Of a DNA stretch of 64,000 nucleotides, positions 1 through 35,192 are shown one piece after another (the stretch's first letter is position 1; the number at the start of each line of letters is the position of its first letter). A program made the translations under genes and the position numbers. Under the pieces are notes generated by a model. It worked only from the letters and a program-made list of their open reading frames with translations. It did not search any database and was not told where the DNA came from. The stretch lies in assembly GCF_055900595.2 (NCBI RefSeq), contig NZ_CM148325.1; one strand, 5' to 3'.

Positions 1-134
1 AAGGGCAAACCACTGACTGGATCAACATTAACAGCGATAACGACAATAAACGCTGCGTCTCAAAAATCACCTTTTCCGGCCATACGGTGAACTCATCGGA
101 TATGGCCACGCTGAAAATTATCGGCGACGACTAA
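1..134 (+). CDS. yaaI: 3' end of YaaI-like protein (DUF2541); start lies outside the window
   Basis: Open frame 3..134 ending in TAA at 132..134 (…TLKIIGDD*); sits 25 bp upstream of yaaW as in K-12. Confidence 0.5.
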
Positions 135-159
135 CGCCAGAATATAGAAGCCACAAAAA

Positions 160-873
160 ATGAATGTTAATTACCTGAATGATTCAGATCTGGATTTTCT
201 CCAGCATTGTAGTGAGGAACAATTGGCAAATTTCGCCCGGCTGCTCACCCATAATGAAAAAGGCAAAACTCGCCTCTCCAGCGTACTGATGCGCAACGAA
301 CTGTTTAAATCGATGGAAGGACATCCCGAGCAACATCGCCGCAACTGGCAGCTGATTGCCGGAGAATTACAGCATTTTGGTGGCGATAGTATCGCCAACA
401 AACTGCGTGGACACGGTAAATTGTATCGGGCCATTTTGCTCGATGTTTCAAAACGATTGAAGCTGAAAGCCGACAAAGAGATGTCTACGTTTGAAATTGA
501 GCAACAGTTACTGGAACAATTTCTGCGTAATACCTGGAAGAAAATGGACGAGGAACATAAGCAGGAGTTTCTGCACGCGGTCGATGCCAGGGTGAATGAG
601 CTGGAAGAGCTGCTGCCGCTGCTGATGAAAGACAAATTATTGGCAAAAGGCGTGTCGCATTTGCTTTCCAACCAATTGACCCGCATTTTACGCACCCACG
701 CAGCAATGAGCGTACTTGGGCATGGTTTGCTGCGCGGCGCGGGGCTGGGAGGCCCTGTAGGCGCGGCACTAAATGGGGTTAAAGCGGTCAGCGGCAGCGC
801 CTATCGCGTGACGATTCCAGCCGTACTGCAAATCGCCTGCCTGCGTCGGATGGTTAGTGCCACTCAGGTCTGA
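160..873 (+). CDS. yaaW: UPF0174 family protein YaaW
   Basis: 237-aa ORF, length and position match K-12 yaaW between yaaI and satP. Confidence 0.8.
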   Translation: MNVNYLNDSDLDFLQHCSEEQLANFARLLTHNEKGKTRLSSVLMRNELFKSMEGHPEQHRRNWQLIAGELQHFGGDSIANKLRGHGKLYRAILLDVSKRLKLKADKEMSTFEIEQQLLEQFLRNTWKKMDEEHKQEFLHAVDARVNELEELLPLLMKDKLLAKGVSHLLSNQLTRILRTHAAMSVLGHGLLRGAGLGGPVGAALNGVKAVSGSAYRVTIPAVLQIACLRRMVSATQV

Positions 874-1021
874 TACCGGAAACCGGGGAAAATTTTCATT
901 TTCCCTTCAAAAGATCGTAGACACTGCCCCACTGGCTGATTATTATGCCGCGCCCTGAAAACACTACAGTTATTCAGGGAAATTATTTCACCATTCATTC
1001 GATGATGATTTTTGAGGAATT

Positions 1022-1588
1022 ATGGGCAACACTAAGTTGGCTAATCCGGCACCGCTGGGCCTGATGGGCTTCGGCATGACCACCATTCTGCTTAACCTGC
1101 ACAACGTGGGTTATTTCGCTCTTGACGGTATTATTCTTGCAATGGGCATTTTCTACGGCGGCATCGCGCAAATTTTTGCTGGTCTGCTGGAGTACAAAAA
1201 AGGCAACACTTTCGGTTTAACCGCATTCACCTCTTACGGTTCTTTCTGGCTGACGCTGGTTGCGATTCTGCTGATGCCGAAACTGGGTCTGACCGATGCG
1301 CCAAATGCACAGTTCCTTGGTGTATACTTGGGTCTGTGGGGCGTATTTACGCTGTTTATGTTCTTCGGCACGCTGAAAGGCGCACGCGTTCTGCAATTCG
1401 TTTTCTTTAGCCTGACCGTGCTGTTTGCCCTGCTGGCGATCGGTAACATTGTCGGTAATGCCGCGATCATCCACTTTGCCGGCTGGATTGGTCTGATCTG
1501 CGGTGCCAGCGCAATCTATCTGGCGATGGGTGAAGTACTGAACGAGCAGTTTGGTCGCACCGTTCTGCCGATTGGTGAATCCCACTAA
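1022..1588 (+). CDS. satP: succinate-acetate/proton symporter SatP (YaaH)
   Basis: 188-aa hydrophobic ORF, GPR1/FUN34/YaaH family; synteny upstream of mog. Confidence 0.9.
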   Translation: MGNTKLANPAPLGLMGFGMTTILLNLHNVGYFALDGIILAMGIFYGGIAQIFAGLLEYKKGNTFGLTAFTSYGSFWLTLVAILLMPKLGLTDAPNAQFLGVYLGLWGVFTLFMFFGTLKGARVLQFVFFSLTVLFALLAIGNIVGNAAIIHFAGWIGLICGASAIYLAMGEVLNEQFGRTVLPIGESH

Positions 1589-2324: not shown

Positions 2325-3278
2325 TTACAGCAGATCGCCGATCATTTTTTCCAGTTTTTCCTGGTCAACAGCAAACTTACGGATACCTTCTGCCAGTTTA
2401 TCTACTGCCATTGGATCCTGGTTGTGCTGCCACAGGAACTCGGACTCAGTGATACGCGCCGGACGCGCTTTCACTTCGCCGGTGTAAGACAGTTTACGCT
2501 CGACAGCCCCTTCGCTCTCAGCCAGCTCTTTCAGCAGTGCCGGTGCGATGGTCAGACGGTCGCAGCCTGCCAGTTCCAGAATTTCGCCGATGTTACGGAA
2601 GCTTGCGCCCATCACCACGGTTTCATAACCGTGCTCTTTGTAGTACTGGTAGATTTCAGATACAGAAACCACGCCCGGATCTTCTGCCGGAGCGTACTCT
2701 TTCTTATCAGTATTCGCTTTGTACCAGTCAAGAATACGGCCAACAAATGGCGAGATCAGGAACACGCCTGCTTCCGCACAAGCACGAGCCTGAGCGAAGG
2801 AGAACAGCAGGGTCAGGTTACAGTTGATACCTTCTTTTTCCAGCTGTTCTGCAGCACGGATACCCTGCCAGGTAGAAGCCAGTTTGATCAGAATACGATC
2901 GTTGCTAATACCTGCATCGTTGTAGAGTTTGATCAGGCGTTTTGCTTTCGCAATTGACGCTTCGGTGTCATAGGAAAGACGCGCATCAACTTCAGTTGAG
3001 ATACGGCCCGGAACCAGTTTCAGGATTTCCAGACCAATATTTACTGCCAGTTTGTCGGTCGCGTCCACGATTTGCTGCGCGCGATCGTTGCTCTGCTGTT
3101 TCGCCCAGGCGACAGCATCATCAATCAACTTACGATATTCCGGAATCTGCGCTGCGTTAAGAATGAGAGAAGGGTTGGTTGTGGCATCCTGCGGTTGATA
3201 CAGCTTCATTGCCGCGATGTCCCCAGTGTCGGCCACTACGGTGGTGTACTGACGAAGGGAGGTCAATTTGTCCGTCAT
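2325..3278 (-). CDS. talB: transaldolase B
   Basis: ORF 2325..3341; the known TalB N-terminus [20 protein letters not shown] begins at an internal Met, giving 317 aa. Confidence 0.92.
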
Positions 3279-3556
3279 GATAGTATTTCTCTTTAAACAG
3301 CTTGTTAGGGGGATGTAACCGGTCTGCCCTGATGATATCACGACGCAACGTCAGCGCAACCGCCGACAAGACGGTTATCGCCTGGCGAGACTGTTTCGGA
3401 TTTCTGACACTGCGTTGATATCGCCCGCCATTTTTATACAAAACCTCATGTATGCTACGCAGAAGTTATCAACTACCTCGTAGCGTATATACTTCTTAAA
3501 CAATTGGTAACGTTTACACAGGAAAGTCATCGCGACCGGCAATAAGAGGGATATGC

Positions 3557-8716: not shown

Positions 8717-11179
8717 TCAGACTCCTAACTTCCATGAGAGGGTACGTAGCAGATCGGCAAAGACACCAGCAGCTGTAACGTCATTGCCCGCGCCATATCC
8801 GCGCAGAACCAACGGCAGCGGCTGATAATAGTGGCTATAGAAGGCCAGGGCGTTTTCGCCATTTTTCACTTTGAACAGCGGATCATTGCCATCCACTTCG
8901 GCAATCTTCACGCGGCAGATGCCATCTTCATCAATATTGCCAACATAGCGCAAAACTTTGCCCTCATCACGAGCCTTCGCCACGCGTGCGGCAAAGAGAT
9001 CGTCGAGCTGTGACAGATTCGCCATAAAAGCTGCAACATCACCCTCTGCGTTAAACTCTGCGGGCAGCACAGGTTCAATTTCAATATCCGCCAGTTCCAG
9101 TTCACGTCCCGTTTCACGGGCGAGAATCAATAGCTTACGCGCCACATCCATACCAGAAAGATCATCTCGCGGGTCCGGTTCGGTATAACCCATTTCCCGC
9201 GCCAGCGTGGTCGCCTCGGAGAAACTCATGCCTTCGTCTAACTTGCCGAAGATATAAGAAAGCGAACCGGAAAGAATGCCGGAGAACTTCATTAATTCAT
9301 CACCTGCGTTGAGCAGATTTTGCAGGTTCTCAATAACCGGTAATCCAGCCCCAACGTTAGTGTCATAGAGGAATTTACGCCGCGATTTTTCCGCCGCATA
9401 ACGCAACTGATGGTAGTAATCCATCGACGAGGTGTTGGCCTTTTTGTTTGGCGTAACCACGTGGAAACCTTCGCGCAGGAAGTCAGCATACTGATCCGCC
9501 ACCGCCTGGCTGGAGGTACAGTCGACAATCACCGGATTCAGCAAATGATATTCTTTCACCAGGCGAATTAAGCGCCCGAGGTTAAACGGCTCTTTGGCTT
9601 GCGCCAGTTCTTCCTGCCAGTTCTCCAGATTAAGGCCATGCACATTGGTGAGCAGAGCCTTTGAGTTGGCAACGCCGCAGACACGTAAGTCGATATGTTT
9701 ATTCTTCAGCCAGCTTTGCTGGCGCTTCAGTTGCTCCAGCAGCGCACCGCCAACACCACCGACGCCAATCACAAACACTTCGATAACCTGATCGGTATTG
9801 AACAGCATCTGGTGGGTAACGCGCACGCCAGTGGTCGCATCATCGTTATTTACCACGACAGAGATTGAGCGTTCAGAAGATCCCTGAGCAATGGCGACAA
9901 TGTTGATATTGGCGCGGGCCAGCGCGGCAAAGAATTTCGCCGAGATCCCACGCAAGGTGCGCATACCATCACCTACCACCGAGATAATGGCTAGCCGTTC
10001 CGTCACCGCCAGCGGCTCCAGCAAGCCTTCCTTCAGTTCAAGATAGAACTCTTCCTGCATCGCCCGTTCAGCTCGCACACAGTCGCTTTGTGGAACGCAG
10101 AAACTGATACTGTATTCAGAAGACGATTGCGTAATCAGCACCACTGAAATGCGAGCGCGTGACATCGCTGCAAAGACGCGCGCCGCCATGCCGACCATCC
10201 CTTTCATTCCCGGACCGGAAACGCTAAACATTGCCATGTTATTCAGATTGGAAATGCCCTTGACTGGTAATTCGTCTTCATCACGGCTGGCGCCAATGAG
10301 CGTACCTGGTGCTTGAGGATTTCCGGTGTTTTTAATCAGGCAAGGGATTTGGAACTGGGCGATGGGGGTAATGGTGCGGGGGTGAAGAACTTTAGCGCCG
10401 AAGTAGGAAAGCTCCATCGCTTCCTGGTAGGACATCGACTTCAACAACCTCGCATCGGGCACCTGACGCGGGTCGCAGGTATAGACCCCGTCAACGTCCG
10501 TCCAGATCTCGCAACAATCGGCGCGTAAACAGGCAGCCAGTACCGCGGCGGAGTAGTCGGAACCGTTACGTCCAAGCACCACCAGTTCGCCTTTTTCATT
10601 ACCGGCGGTGAAACCTGCCATCAGCACCATGTGGTCAGCCGGAATGCGGCTTGCCGCAATACGGCGGGTGGACTCAGCAATATCGACGGTAGATTCGAGG
10701 TAATGACCGACTGCCAGCAGTTTTTCGACCGGATCGATTACGGTAACGTTGTGACCACGCGCTTCTAACACGCCGGCCATAATGGCGATCGACATTTTCT
10801 CGCCACGGCAAATCAGTGCCGCGTTGATGCTATCCGGGCACTGCCCTAACAAACTAATACCATGCAGGACATGTTTAATTTGGGCAAATTCCTGGTCGAC
10901 GAAAGTTTTCAGCTGCGCCAGCGGGAATCCCGGCTGAGCGGCGGCGAGTCCCGTCAGAAGTTCGGCAAAAATACGTTCGGCATCGCTGATATTGGGTAAA
11001 GCATCCTGGCCGCTAATGGTTTTTTCAATCATCGCCACCAGGTGGTTGGTGATTTTGGCGGGGGCAGAGAGGACGGTGGCCACCTGCCCCTGCCTGGCAT
11101 TGCTTTCCAGAATATCGGCAACCCGCAGAAAACGTTCTGCATTTGCCACTGATGTACCGCCGAACTTCAACACTCGCAT
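8717..11179 (-). CDS. thrA: bifunctional aspartokinase I / homoserine dehydrogenase I
   Basis: ORF 8717..11221; canonical start [18 protein letters not shown] is an internal Met at 11179, giving 820 aa. Confidence 0.95.
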
Positions 11180-11204
11180 GGTTGTTACCTCGTTACCTTT
11201 GGTC

Positions 11205-11240
11205 GAAAAAAAAGCCCGCACTGTCAGGTGCGGGCTTTTT
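11205..11240 (-). terminator. thr operon attenuator (leader terminator hairpin plus U-run)
   Basis: AGCCCGCAC-CTGACA-GTGCGGGCT hairpin followed by T8 on the minus strand, between thrL and thrA. Confidence 0.85.
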
Positions 11241-11259
11241 TCTGTGTTTCCTGTACGCG

Positions 11260-11328
<69 letters not shown>

Positions 11329-30827: not shown

Positions 30828-31547
30828 TTACTCTTTATCGCCCAGCAGAACGGATTCCAGTGCGATTTTGATCATGTCGTTGAAGGTAGTCTGACGCTCA
30901 GCGGCAGTGGTTTGCTCGTGAGTGCGGATGTGGTCAGACACGGTGCAGATGGTCAGGGCTTTCGCGCCAAACTCTGCAGCCACGCCGTAGATACCAGCCG
31001 CTTCCATTTCCACGCCGAGGATGCCGTATTTTTCCATCACGTCGAACATTTCGCCGTCCGGAGAGTAGAACAGGTCAGCGGAGAACAGGTTACCAACGCG
31101 AGCATCAATGCCCAGTGCTTTAGCTGCATCTACTGCGTTACGCACCATGTCGAAGTCAGCGATAGCGGCAAAGTCATGGTCTTTAAAACGGATGCGGTTA
31201 ACTTTGGAATCGGTGCAGGCACCCATACCAATCACTACGTCACGCAGTTTTACGTGCGGCAGAACTGCACCACAGGAACCAACGCGAATGATTTTCTTCA
31301 CGCCGAAATCGGTGATCAGTTCTTTAGTGTAGATGGAGCAGGACGGGATACCCATACCGTGGCCCATTACAGAAATTTTGCGGCCTTTGTAAGTACCGGT
31401 GAAGCCCAGCATACCGCGAACGTTGTTCACTTCACGAGCATCTTCAAGGAAAGTTTCAGCAATATACTTCGCACGCAGCGGGTCGCCTGGCATCAAAACT
31501 ACGTCAGCGAAATCGCCCATTTCTGCATTAATGTGTGGAGTAGCCAT
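30828..31547 (-). CDS. deoD: purine nucleoside phosphorylase DeoD
   Basis: ORF 30828..31604; DeoD N-terminus [33 protein letters not shown] begins at an internal Met (239 aa). Confidence 0.95.
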
Positions 31548-31603
31548 CATTTTATCCTTTTTGTGACATATTAAAGGCGGAGTCACTGCTCCGCCCAAAT
31601 CCA

Positions 31604-32848
<1,245 letters not shown>

Positions 32849-32878
32849 TCAAATTTAAATGATCAGATCAGTATACCG

Positions 32879-34201
32879 TTATTCGCTGATACGGCGATAG
32901 ACAGTCGGTGTGCTTTCCGGTGCTTTATCGGCAAGTTTAATTGCCGCTTTCACCGCTTTCGCCGCTTCCTGCCAGCTGTTTTCGTCTTTCGCGTGGATAA
33001 CCGCCAGCGGACGCTGACCGTCTACCTGGTCGCCCAGACGCGCCATATCAGTAAAGCCGACGCTGTAATCGATGGTGTCAGATGCCTGACGGCGACCGCC
33101 GCCCATTGCAACCACTGCCATTCCCAGCGCGCGGGTATCCATTTCACTGACAAAACCTTCGGTATCAGCATAGACTGCTTTCGTCAGCATCGCTGTCGGC
33201 AGATACTTCGCGTAGTTCTCAACGAAGTCGGTCGGGCCTTTTTGTGCTGCCACCATACGACCAAAGACTTCTGCCGCTTTACCGTTGTCCAGCACCGCCT
33301 GCAATTTCGCGCGCGCTTCGGCGTCATCTTTCGCCAGTTTGCCGGAGGTAAGCATCTCCACGCACAGTGCCATCGTGACATCAAACAGACGCGGGTTACG
33401 ATACTCACCCGTCAGGAACTGCACCGCTTCACGAACTTCAACCGCGTTACCTGCACTGGAGGCCAGCACCTGATTCATATCGGTGAGCAGCGCGGTGGTG
33501 CGCACGCCAGCACCGTTAGCCACGCCAACAATCGCTTCGGCAAGGGCTTCAGAGAGTTCGTAGGTCGGCATAAACGCGCCGCTACCCACTTTCACGTCCA
33601 TCACCAGCGCGTCCAGACCTTCCGCCAGTTTCTTCGCCAGGATCGAGGCAGTGATCAGCGGGATGGAATCCACGGTTGCGGTAATATCGCGGGTCGCGTA
33701 GAAACGTTTATCTGCCGGAGCCAGTGAACTGGTCTGGCCAATAATCGCCACGCCGACGTCTTTAATAATTTCGCGGAAACGGTTGTCATCCGGGAAAATG
33801 TCGAAGCCAGGGATGGATTCCAGTTTGTCGAGCGTACCACCAGTATGGCCGAGGCCGCGACCGGAGATCATCGGAATATAGCCGCCGCAGGCAGCGACCA
33901 TTGGCCCCAACATCAGCGAAGTCACATCGCCGACGCCGCCGGTCGAGTGTTTATCAACAATCGGGCCATTCAGATGCAGGCTTTTCCAGTCGAGAACGGT
34001 TCCTGAATCTCGCATCGCCATCGTCAGCGAGACACGCTCCGGCATTGTCATATCGTGGAAGAAAATGGTCATCGCGAGGGCGGCAATCTGCCCTTCGGAG
34101 ATAGTGTTGTCGCGAATGCCGTTGATAAAGAAGCGAATTTCTTCATCGCTCAGCGCATGACCATCACGTTTTTTACGAATAATTTCTTGTGCGAGAAACA
34201 A
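32879..34201 (-). CDS. deoA: thymidine phosphorylase DeoA
   Basis: 440-aa [50 protein letters not shown]…. Confidence 0.95.
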
Positions 34202-34254
34202 GGTAACCTCCCGTGGAATAAGTTTGAAGGCGTTGTTGCCAGATGGCGGATGTT

Positions 34255-34350
34255 GTTATTGCCTGATGCGATGCTGACGCATCTTACAAGGCCTACACGG
34301 CACTCGACCCGTAGGCCGGATAAGGCGTTCGCGCCGCATCCGGCATCCAC
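34255..34350. repeat. REP elements between deoC and deoA
   Basis: GCCTGATGCGATGCTGACGCATC… and …GTAGGCCGGATAAGGCGTTCGCGCCGCATCCGGCA palindromic units. Confidence 0.8.
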
Positions 34351-34368
34351 CCTCTGGCAAAAGGCAGC

Positions 34369-35148
34369 TTAGTAGCTGCTGGCGCTCTTACCGTCGCCGT
34401 GGCCCAGCGCTTTCAGCAGGCTTGCCAGCAGGCTGGAAGCACCAAAGCGGTAGTGACGCGCATCTGCCCAGTCAGCACCGAACAGTTCATCTGCAATCGC
34501 GAGATATTTCTGCGCATCTTCCGCAGTACGCACGCCGCCCGCAGGTTTGAAACCAACGGTTTTCTCTACGCCCATATCACGGATCACTTCCATCATGATG
34601 CGCGCGCTTTCCGGCGTCGCGTTCACTGCAACTTTACCGGTAGAGGTTTTGATGAAATCAGCACCCGCTTTAATGGAGATTTCAGACGCTTTGCGGATCA
34701 GCGCTTCGTCTTTCAGTTCGCCGGTTTCGATGATCACTTTCAGCAGTACATTCGCTGCCGCGCAAGCCTCTTTACAGGCTTTCACCAGGTCAAAACCAAC
34801 CTGCTCGTTACCCGCCATCAGCGCACGGTACGGGAACACCACATCAACTTCATCGGCACCGTAGGCGATTGCCGCGCGGGTTTCGGCCAGCGCGATTTCA
34901 ATATCGTCGTTACCGTGTGGGAAGTTGGTTACCGTAGCGATACGGATTTCCGGGGTGCCCTGCTCTTTCAGCGTTTTGCGAGCAATCGGGATAAAGCGAG
35001 GATAGATACAGATAGCGGCGGTATTGCCGACCGGAGTTTTGGCCTGATGACACAGAGCGATCACTTTCTCATCGGTGTCGTCGTCATTCAGGGTGGTCAG
35101 GTCCATCAATTTCAGTGCACGCAGGCTGCTTGCTTTCAGATCAGTCAT
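34369..35148 (-). CDS. deoC: deoxyribose-phosphate aldolase DeoC
   Basis: ORF 34369..35172; likely start at [26 protein letters not shown] (259 aa). Confidence 0.93.
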
Positions 35149-35192
35149 TTCATTCTCCTGGCTTGTCGCCAATAAAATTCACCTTGCGAGTT

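What the first reader, a model, noticed from the sequence alone, without database searches (positions are those of the whole stretch)
171..695. Long antisense ORF inside yaaW (htgA/mbiA position)
A 174-codon ORF runs antisense across yaaW, at the position of the disputed K-12 overlapping gene htgA. Its sequence is Ser/Cys-rich and of low complexity, so it may be an artefact of the yaaW codon pattern.
Basis: partly seen in the sequence, partly recalled or inferred. Interest (0 to 1): 0.2.

Follow-up and report, generated by a model that had tools for sequence, protein, structure and literature searches.

The report
Known mbiA/htgA antisense ORF, evolving neutrally
The long antisense reading frame inside the E. 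coli gene yaaW is real and is the already described, disputed gene mbiA/htgA, but it looks like a chance mirror image of yaaW that evolves without any selection of its own.

Summary
The ORF is there as described: 171-695, minus strand, 174 codons from GTG, wholly inside yaaW (160-873, +). It is the ortholog of K-12 mbiA/htgA/htpY (b0012), whose annotated ATG is window 686. K-12 stops at TGA (203-201); this strain has TGG there, so its ORF runs 10 codons further, giving 171 aa from the ATG.

The Ser/Cys richness mirrors YaaW. Each Glu or Asp reads as Ser in this frame, and each Gln or His reads as Cys or Trp. With the YaaW protein fixed, only 11 silent codon choices decide whether the frame stays open, and chance gives 5-12%. 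In this window, 8 of 61 putative genes carry antisense ORFs at least as long.

The frame is open only in Escherichia; other genera have 3-8 stops. Among yaaW-silent changes, the antisense omega is 1.34 (0.85-2.06). Outgroups with a broken frame give 1.22. yaaW itself gives 0.28.

Alleles with earlier stops occur in 1500, 248 and 154 of 5426 complete genomes. No homologue, Pfam family or predicted fold was found (pLDDT 28).

Verdict: already known, and most likely a non-selected ORF. The published mutant phenotype is the main counter-evidence. Low interest.

The parts
160..873 (+). yaaW, the host ('mother') gene, 237 aa. It is under strong purifying selection.
   Evidence: ORF. Pfam DUF3944 plus Ubiq_cyt_C_chap. 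K-12 b0011 'putative enzyme-specific chaperone YaaW'. dN/dS is 0.01-0.03 within Escherichia. Omega is 0.28 (0.11-0.59) even when conditioned on antisense-silent changes.
171..695 (-). The reported antisense ORF, 174 codons from GTG to TAA.
   Evidence: The GTG (695-693) is GTC or GTA in Escherichia sp. E1V33 and E. albertii.
171..686 (-). The same ORF from the ATG used for K-12 mbiA. It gives 171 aa in this strain, the length of UniProt Q8XA70 (MbiA of O157:H7).
   Evidence: The ATG is invariant in 32 Escherichia sequences. It needs only Arg175 = CGC followed by Ile176, and it is also present in Salmonella, UBA7338 and P. vulneris.
201..203 (-). TGG (Trp) codon here, where K-12 has the TGA stop of mbiA (161 aa). 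The difference is a yaaW-silent CTC/CTT (Leu14) polymorphism.
   Evidence: 3854 complete E. coli genomes carry C and 1500 carry T.
249..251 (-). TGG codon that is TGA in some strains and in E. albertii, giving a 145-aa ORF. It is yaaW-silent (ACC/ACT, Thr30).
   Evidence: The T allele is in 248 genomes and the C allele in 5162.
369..371 (-). TGT codon that is TGA in the ST73-type allele (YaaW L70F). The antisense ORF is cut to 105 aa.
   Evidence: L041. 154 genomes carry it, including Nissle 1917 and ATCC 25922.
375..377 (-). AAA (Lys) codon that is a TAA stop in all seven Citrobacter, Salmonella, UBA7338, ESNIH1 and P. vulneris sequences tabulated. The stop was removed in Escherichia by the YaaW replacement Tyr73 to Phe (window 376-378, TTT).
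801..803 (-). Upstream in-frame stop (TAG) that bounds the 209-codon stop-free run. The run ends at the TAA at 173-171.
597..623 (-). The low-complexity run SSGSSSSSS, the antisense reading of YaaW 147-155 (ELEELLPLL).
   Evidence: E/D to Ser, CTN-Leu to Ser/Arg, Pro to Gly.
771..778 (-). CCCCATTT, resembling a sigma-32 -10 element, 85 nt upstream of the ATG. It has no -35 partner and is probably chance.
   Evidence: 5 such octamers occur in the window against 6.6 expected. CTTGAA-N12-17-CCCCATNT gives 0 matches. No sigma-70-like site lies on the minus strand at 690-900.

Best explanation
The ORF is the known Escherichia-specific antisense frame mbiA (also htgA, htpY; K-12 b0012). It is most likely a by-product of yaaW and not a protein kept by selection. 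In this antisense frame, third codon positions face each other. Antisense positions 1 and 2 face yaaW positions 2 and 1. Each antisense residue is therefore almost fixed by the YaaW residue opposite: Glu/Asp gives Ser, CTN-Leu gives Ser/Arg, Gln/His gives Cys/Trp/stop, and Lys/Asn gives Phe/Leu. A Glu/Leu/Gln/His-rich protein therefore reads backwards as a Ser/Cys-rich, low-complexity sequence. Stops are possible at only 22 places in that sequence. Only 11 of those can be switched by a yaaW-silent change. The frame opened in the Escherichia ancestor through YaaW Tyr73 to Phe plus one to three silent changes. Since then it has drifted: changes that are silent in yaaW alter or truncate the antisense product as often as neutrality predicts. 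Shown here: identity with mbiA, the mirror-composition mechanism, the chance level of the open frame, restriction to Escherichia, neutral evolution, common truncated alleles, and absence of homologues or a predicted fold. Inferred: the product, if made at all, contributes little or nothing to fitness, and the reported antisense promoter activity reflects pervasive or RNA-level effects.
For: - **Identity.** Same frame and position as b0012. It shares a cluster with MbiA entries annotated at 161, 171, 174, 199 and 206 aa.
- **Composition.** All 26 Glu/Asp give Ser, and all 16 Cys come from Gln/His.
- **Chance level.** P(open) is 0.052 by synonymous permutation. With codon usage from 48 other putative genes in the window it is 0.049, 0.098 and 0.117. 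In this window 8 of 61 putative genes have antisense ORFs of 174 aa or more, and the deo genes carry ones of 206-299 aa.
- **Distribution.** The frame is open only in Escherichia. There are 5-9 in-frame stops per yaaW in Citrobacter, Salmonella, Kluyvera and Pseudescherichia, 3-8 of them inside the stretch that is open in Escherichia.
- **Selection.** Antisense omega given yaaW-silent changes is 1.12 (0.42-2.68) in E. coli and 1.34 (0.85-2.06) across Escherichia. Independent species pairs give 1.50 (0.95-2.30), against 1.22 (0.93-1.58) in outgroups with a broken frame. The N-terminal 105 aa alone gives 1.06 (0.57-1.87). The same estimator detects selection on yaaW, at 0.28 (p = 0.0005).
- **Truncations.** Stops lie at four different positions among 26 haplotypes. 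The earlier stops are in 1500, 248 and 154 of 5426 genomes. Two of the three possible yaaW-silent stop-gain transitions are polymorphic, against 16 of 158 doubly silent ones.
- **Orphan status.** An exhaustive HMMER scan of 1.84 billion representatives gave 6 hits: the E. coli cluster itself, three chimeras of assembly errors or frameshifts (P0002-P0004), one error-ridden E. coli-like fragment (P0005), and one 64-aa fragment that looks like the antisense of a yaaW homologue (P0006).
- **No family or fold.** No Pfam or NCBIfam family. AlphaFold2 gives mean pLDDT 28 and no secondary structure.
- **Annotation.** PGAP annotates the ORF in none of the 20 non-K-12 RefSeq records inspected.
- **Literature.** Conservation in this '-2' frame can be a pure artefact of selection on the mother gene (PMC4182739). 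Delaye et al. themselves call the gene controversial and note that it is not sigma-32 induced (PMC2268670).
Against: - **Published experiments that I could not read in full.** Missiakas et al. 1993 reported cloning, Northern blots, protein labelling and promoter mapping, as summarised in PMC2268670. Fellner et al. 2014 reported a phenotype for a strand-specific mutant in EDL933, cited as 'verified by demonstrating a phenotype' in bioRxiv 2020.11.18.388249. An intragenic htgA/yaaW promoter was active in vitro (PMC2731890).
- **The frame is somewhat unlikely.** The open frame is in the upper 5-12% of the null, and it has stayed open from the ATG for at least 105-171 codons in every Escherichia sequence seen.
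- **The ATG is invariant in Escherichia.**
- **Limits of the omega test.** It counts segregating alleles in 32 sequences without a phylogeny. Its confidence intervals exclude strong but not weak selection (omega 0.6-0.9).
- **Limits of the fold argument.** A very young de novo protein may be disordered and composition-dependent, so the lack of a fold or homologues is not decisive. The AlphaFold run also had no alignment.
Confidence: 0.72

Rival explanations
1. mbiA is a genuine, very young overprinted protein-coding gene of Escherichia and Shigella. It would be transcribed from an intragenic promoter antisense to yaaW and translated from the ATG at 686. Its Ser/Cys-rich, probably disordered product would modulate biofilm formation and metabolism.
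For: - A mutant phenotype was reported (Fellner 2014, as cited).
- Earlier work reported RNA, labelled protein and promoter data (summarised).
- An intragenic promoter was active in vitro.
- The ATG is conserved and the frame is open for 105 codons or more in all 32 Escherichia sequences.
- The open frame lies in the top 5-12% of the null.
- The Shine-Dalgarno-like pairing upstream of the ATG is average for the window's genes, at -3.9 kcal/mol against a median of -4.0.
Against: - Omega is about 1.1-1.5, the same as in lineages where the frame is broken.
- Truncations to 161, 145 and 105 aa segregate at 28%, 4.6% and 2.8%, including in successful ST73 strains.
- No homologue, family or predicted fold was found.
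- At 9.4% Cys and 24% Ser, the composition is exactly what YaaW's sequence dictates.
- The slower evolution of yaaW in Escherichia, used as indirect evidence in 2008, is equally present in the part of yaaW outside the ORF. dN/dS is 0.01-0.02 there and 0.02-0.03 inside.
- The heat-shock role was not upheld, since the gene is not sigma-32 induced according to work cited.
Confidence: 0.2
2. What matters is an antisense transcript, not a protein. RNA made from the minus strand within yaaW would act by transcriptional interference or RNA pairing on yaaW (or yaaI), and the ORF it carries would be incidental.
For: - Intragenic antisense promoter activity was reported in vitro.
- The model fits a neutral protein frame.
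- It could explain mutant phenotypes without a protein.
Against: - No sigma-70-like promoter lies on the minus strand at 690-900.
- The sigma-32-like -10 octamer is at chance frequency and lacks a -35 element.
- No Rfam family matches.
- yaaW-silent sites in the overlap show no excess constraint relative to outgroups.
- Nothing here shows the transcript exists in this strain.
Confidence: 0.08

Closest known systems
mbiA / htgA / htpY of E. coli K-12 (b0012; UniProt P28697) and O157:H7 (UniProt Q8XA70, 'modifier of biofilm')
   Same: The locus, strand and frame inside yaaW are the same, and so is the ATG. The sequence differs from K-12 MbiA at 2 residues. The length of 171 aa from the ATG equals that of the O157:H7 entry.
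   Different: K-12 stops 10 codons earlier (TGA where this strain has TGG).
Other reported embedded antisense genes of E. coli (nog1/citC, laoB/ECs5115, ano/ECs2385, asa, pop/ompA)
   Same: All are ORFs embedded antisense in an annotated gene, taxonomically restricted, without homologues, and proposed to arise by overprinting.
   Different: Those cases rest on RNA-seq and Ribo-seq signals and competitive-growth phenotypes. Here no expression data were available, and the evolutionary tests are negative.
Chance long antisense ('shadow') ORFs in ordinary genes, for example those opposite deoC, deoA, deoB and deoD in this window
   Same: These are long stop-free antisense frames with no family match, explained by the sense gene's sequence.
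   Different: The deo ORFs lie in the frame where antisense position 3 faces sense position 1, which is favoured by codon bias. The yaaW ORF lies in the position 3 to position 3 frame, where it is the longest of its class in this window (174 aa; next 158 aa).

Membership tests
mbiA/htgA (b0012) ortholog | Embedded antisense in yaaW, in the same reading frame as K-12 b0012 | tested here: met
   K-12 10830-11315 maps to window 201-686 in frame. Antisense position 3 faces yaaW position 3.
mbiA/htgA (b0012) ortholog | Product near-identical to named MbiA/HtgA proteins | tested here: met
   There are 2 substitutions against K-12 plus Trp for the stop. The product is 99% identical to the cluster representative, and the cluster holds the MbiA entries of K-12 and O157:H7.
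Functional (selected) protein-coding gene | Purifying selection on its own frame, separable from that on the overlapping gene | tested here: not met
   Omega given yaaW-silent changes is 1.12-1.50, with confidence intervals that include 1. The outgroup (non-ORF) baseline is 1.22. The yaaW control is 0.28.
Functional (selected) protein-coding gene | ORF kept intact and of constant length across the clade that has it | tested here: not met
   Lengths of 171, 161, 145 and 105 aa occur among 26 haplotypes. The stop alleles are in 1500, 248 and 154 of 5426 genomes.
Functional (selected) protein-coding gene | ORF longer than expected by chance | tested here: inconclusive
   P is 0.05-0.12 with the YaaW protein fixed. 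In this window 8 of 61 putative genes carry antisense ORFs at least as long.
Functional (selected) protein-coding gene | Promoter and ribosome-binding site | tested here: inconclusive
   No sigma-70-like site lies upstream on the minus strand. The Shine-Dalgarno-like pairing of -3.9 kcal/mol is average for genes here, and the random background median is -2.2.
Functional (selected) protein-coding gene | Transcribed and translated | not testable with these tools
   No RNA-seq, Ribo-seq or proteomics data were accessible. The key experimental papers (PMID 24111745, PMC204563, PMC1522074) are not held.
Functional (selected) protein-coding gene | Homologues, a family, or a foldable product | tested here: not met
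   No Pfam or NCBIfam hit. Apart from one 64-aa antisense-of-yaaW-like fragment, only E. coli copies and assembly chimeras appear among 1.84 billion representatives. AlphaFold2 gives pLDDT 28.4, from a single sequence, so this is weak evidence.
Sigma-32 heat-shock regulon member (the original HtgA/HtpY claim) | Sigma-32 promoter (CTTGAA, 13-17 nt spacer, CCCCATNT) upstream | tested here: not met
   Only a -10-like CCCCATTT at 778-771, at chance frequency and with no -35 element. The literature reports no sigma-32 induction (cited in PMC2268670).

The most novel reading that the evidence does not exclude
MbiA could be a real de novo protein whose activity depends on bulk composition (a disordered, Ser/Cys-rich N-terminal segment of about 105 residues) and not on exact sequence. 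It would then tolerate neutral-looking substitution and C-terminal truncation while still affecting biofilm or metabolism in Escherichia. This would make it a caught-in-the-act example of gene birth by overprinting in a bacterium.
Probability: 0.12. Interest if true: 0.5.

Novelty: already known. Interest (0 to 1): 0.12.

Why it matters
htgA/mbiA is the textbook example cited for bacterial gene birth by overprinting, and it remains annotated in the E. coli K-12 reference genome. With today's 5426 complete genomes, the frame evolves like non-coding sequence and is truncated in about a third of strains. This weakens that example. It also shows a cheap test, conditioning on changes that are silent in the mother gene, that can be applied to other proposed antisense genes. 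For the genome scan itself the finding is ordinary: a known ORF, explained by the gene on the other strand.

Tried and rejected
- **Metagenome scan.** A scan with a conserved 41-mer, meant to collect many E. coli alleles, gave only 9 loci. I therefore took 17 further full-length alleles from complete genomes spread across the identity range, plus one IS1-disrupted copy. I obtained allele frequencies from 32-33-nt megablast queries placed so that a single mismatch abolishes the seed.\n- **Genome-collection scan.** The scan with YaaW returned 17 loci, enough for outgroups but thin for Escherichia species.\n- **Apparent distant homologues.** P0002-P0005 turned out to be frameshift or assembly chimeras, or error-ridden reads of the E. 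coli locus. The P0002 contig has dnaK split into four pieces.\n- **Rfam.** No match at E-value 1 or better in 1-1100.\n- **Promoter and terminator scan.** Nothing lies upstream of the ORF on the minus strand. A weak terminator-like hairpin at 139-122 (-) is within the chance count.\n- **Sigma-32 motif.** It is at chance frequency.\n- **Structure.** AlphaFold2 without an alignment gave pLDDT 28, so no fold search was run.\n- **Plain dN/dS on the antisense frame.** I rejected it as uninformative, because antisense positions 1 and 2 are yaaW positions 2 and 1 and any yaaW constraint is inherited (PMC4182739).\n- **Delaye's slow-down argument.** Lower yaaW dN/dS in Escherichia is real but not specific to the overlapped part.\n- **Papers not held.** Fellner 2014, Missiakas 1993 and Nonaka 2006 are not in the library. 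Statements about them rest on how other papers cite them.

Full report
**What is there**

The window is E. coli, 99.8% identical over 1-1100 to strain EC42405. It is the reverse complement of K-12 at about 10.4-11.5 kb. It contains the end of yaaI (1-134, +), yaaW (160-873, +), satP (1022-1588, +), mog (1623-2210, -) and talB (2325-3341, -).

The reported ORF is present exactly as described: 171-695, minus strand, 174 aa, GTG start. It lies wholly inside yaaW, whose product carries DUF3944 and a ubiquinol-cytochrome c chaperone-like domain.

K-12's curated record annotates mbiA (b0012) at 10830-11315, which corresponds to window 201-686 in the same frame. The ORF is therefore the ortholog of mbiA (also htgA, htpY).

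- The annotated start is the ATG at 686. The GTG at 695 is merely the first start-like codon after the upstream stop at 803-801, and it is not conserved in E. albertii or Escherichia sp. E1V33.
- K-12 ends at a TGA that is TGG in this strain, so the ORF runs 10 codons further, to the TAA at 173-171. This gives 171 aa from the ATG, the length of UniProt Q8XA70.

**Why it looks the way it does**

Antisense codon position 3 faces yaaW position 3, and antisense positions 1 and 2 face yaaW positions 2 and 1. The antisense residue is therefore almost fixed by the YaaW residue opposite.

- All 26 Glu/Asp read as Ser.
- CTN-Leu reads as Ser or Arg.
- All 16 Cys come from Gln/His.
- Lys/Asn reads as Phe or Leu.

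The run SSGSSSSSS (623-597) is YaaW 147-155, ELEELLPLL, read backwards. This accounts for 24% Ser and 9.4% Cys.

Stops in this frame can arise only opposite Tyr, or opposite Gln/His preceded by a codon ending in T. There are 22 such places in the 209-codon open stretch, and only 11 of them can be switched by a yaaW-silent change.

**Is the open frame more than chance?**

- With the YaaW protein fixed and its own synonymous codons permuted, the 209-codon run is reached in 5.2% of trials.
- With codons drawn from 48 other putative genes of the window, P is 0.049 for the full run, 0.098 for 161 aa or more, and 0.117 for 145 aa or more. The mean is 2.6 stops expected.
- In this window, 15 of 61 putative genes carry an antisense ORF of 150 aa or more, and 8 of 174 aa or more. 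These include ORFs of 206-299 aa opposite deoD, deoB, deoA and deoC.

Length alone is not evidence of a gene.

**Distribution and origin**

In yaaW orthologs from Citrobacter, Salmonella, Kluyvera, Pseudescherichia and two unnamed enterobacteria, the same frame has 5-9 stops. Of these, 3-8 fall inside the stretch that is open in Escherichia. The frame is open only in Escherichia.

The one stop shared by all seven Citrobacter, Salmonella, UBA7338, ESNIH1 and P. vulneris sequences tabulated is the TAA opposite His72-Tyr73. It was removed in Escherichia by the YaaW replacement Tyr73 to Phe. The other stops differ between genera and are silent third-position choices. This agrees with Delaye et al. 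2008 (PMC2268670).

**Selection**

Ordinary dN/dS on the antisense frame is uninformative, because it inherits yaaW's constraint (PMC4182739). I therefore conditioned on changes that are silent in yaaW and asked how often they alter the antisense product. The expectation was enumerated separately for transitions and transversions.

| Comparison | Result |
|---|---|
| 26 E. coli sequences | 7 antisense-altering changes observed, 6.5 expected |
| 32 Escherichia sequences | 32 observed, 26.6 expected |
| Antisense omega, E. coli | 1.12 (0.42-2.68) |
| Antisense omega, all Escherichia | 1.34 (0.85-2.06) |
| Antisense omega, independent Escherichia species pairs | 1.50 (0.95-2.30) |
| Antisense omega, outgroup pairs with a broken frame (control) | 1.22 (0.93-1.58) |
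| Antisense omega, N-terminal 105 residues only | 1.06 (0.57-1.87) |
| Reciprocal test on yaaW | 0.28 (0.11-0.59), p = 0.0005 |

The reciprocal result shows that the method has power.

Delaye et al.'s indirect argument was that yaaW evolves more slowly where htgA overlaps it. That effect is not specific to the overlap. yaaW dN/dS in Escherichia is 0.02-0.03 inside the overlap and 0.01-0.02 outside it.

**ORF integrity in the population**

Among 26 Escherichia haplotypes, the ORF from the ATG is 171, 161, 145 or 105 aa long. Diagnostic short queries against 5426 complete E. coli genomes gave the following counts.

| Allele | ORF length | Genomes with the stop | Genomes with the open allele |
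|---|---|---|---|
| K-12-type stop (window 201 T) | 161 aa | 1500 | 3854 |
| Stop at 251-249 | 145 aa | 248 | 5162 |
| Stop at 371-369 | 105 aa | 154, including Nissle 1917 and ATCC 25922 | not queried |

Two of the three possible yaaW-silent stop-gain transitions are polymorphic, against 16 of 158 doubly silent transitions (Fisher p = 0.03). Nonsense changes are therefore not being removed.

**Product**

- No Pfam or NCBIfam family matches.
- The k-mer search and the exhaustive HMMER scan of 1.84 billion representatives found little beyond the E. coli cluster of 14 members. That cluster is annotated at five different lengths and under four different names. The other hits are frameshift or assembly chimeras, one error-ridden E. 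coli-like fragment, and one short antisense-of-yaaW fragment.
- AlphaFold2 without an alignment gives mean pLDDT 28.4 and no secondary structure.

**Signals**

- No sigma-70-like promoter lies on the minus strand upstream of the ORF.
- CCCCATTT at 778-771 resembles a sigma-32 -10 element but occurs at chance frequency and has no -35 element.
- Shine-Dalgarno-like pairing before the ATG is average for this window.
- There is no Rfam match.
- PGAP does not annotate the ORF in any of the 20 non-K-12 RefSeq records inspected.

**Counter-evidence**

- Earlier experimental work reported RNA, labelled protein and promoter mapping for htpY/htgA (as summarised in PMC2268670).
- An intragenic promoter was active in vitro (PMC2731890).
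- A strand-specific mutant in O157:H7 was reported to have a phenotype (Fellner et al. 2014, cited).

I could not read these primary papers. My recollection is that the 2014 study reported gfp promoter fusions, mapped transcription start sites and differences in biofilm and metabolites, and that it renamed the gene because no heat-shock role was found. This recollection is unverified here. The sigma-32 link is disputed in the literature itself.

**Verdict**

The feature is already known. The best-supported reading (confidence about 0.7) is a non-selected ORF that mirrors yaaW. A real but very young gene (about 0.2) and an RNA-level role (about 0.1) remain possible. Interest is low.

Noticed in passing
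window 160-873 (yaaW), and RefSeq records L001, L029-L045: RefSeq/PGAP labels YaaW 'msyB: acidic protein MsyB' in every non-K-12 E. coli record examined. The NCBIfam equivalog NF007593 (PRK10236.1) carries that name but matches YaaW end to end (519 bits). The real K-12 MsyB (b1051, 124 aa) shows no similarity to YaaW (BLASTP E = 2.5) and hits a different model, NF008544. This looks like a mis-named HMM propagating a wrong gene name across thousands of genomes.
   Followed up: yes
window 30828-35172 (deoD, deoB, deoA, deoC; minus strand): The deo operon genes carry antisense ORFs of 220, 206, 299 and 258 aa, and the deoC one spans 97% of the gene. All lie in the frame where antisense position 3 faces sense position 1, and none has a Pfam hit. 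They are longer than the yaaW ORF and are a useful yardstick for chance antisense ORFs.
   Followed up: partly
L046 799-1496 (E. coli PS2Canimalfeces12, NZ_CP180600.1): An IS1X2 element is inserted in yaaW, which is annotated as two pseudogene fragments. Both yaaW and the antisense ORF are therefore dispensable in at least one isolate.
   Followed up: no
window 1-1100, matches in E. coli genomes: Three of the 5429 matches to the yaaI-yaaW-satP region lie on records typed as plasmids, and at least one genome has two copies. This could reflect F-prime-like elements or mis-assignment.
   Followed up: no
window 141-170 (minus strand) and 918-946 (plus strand): There is a sigma-70-like site TTAACA-18-TATATT on the minus strand just downstream of the antisense ORF's stop, pointing into yaaI antisense and towards dnaK. 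A second site, TAGACA-17-TATTAT, lies on the plus strand about 75 nt upstream of satP and is a plausible satP promoter.
   Followed up: no
L003 and L027 (labelled E. coli / metagenome), yaaW region: The GTDB species representative titled 'Escherichia coli strain SCPM-O-B-8794' and one metagenome contig differ from the window at 79-81 of 714 yaaW positions, as far as named cryptic Escherichia species. They are probably not E. coli in the strict sense.
   Followed up: no
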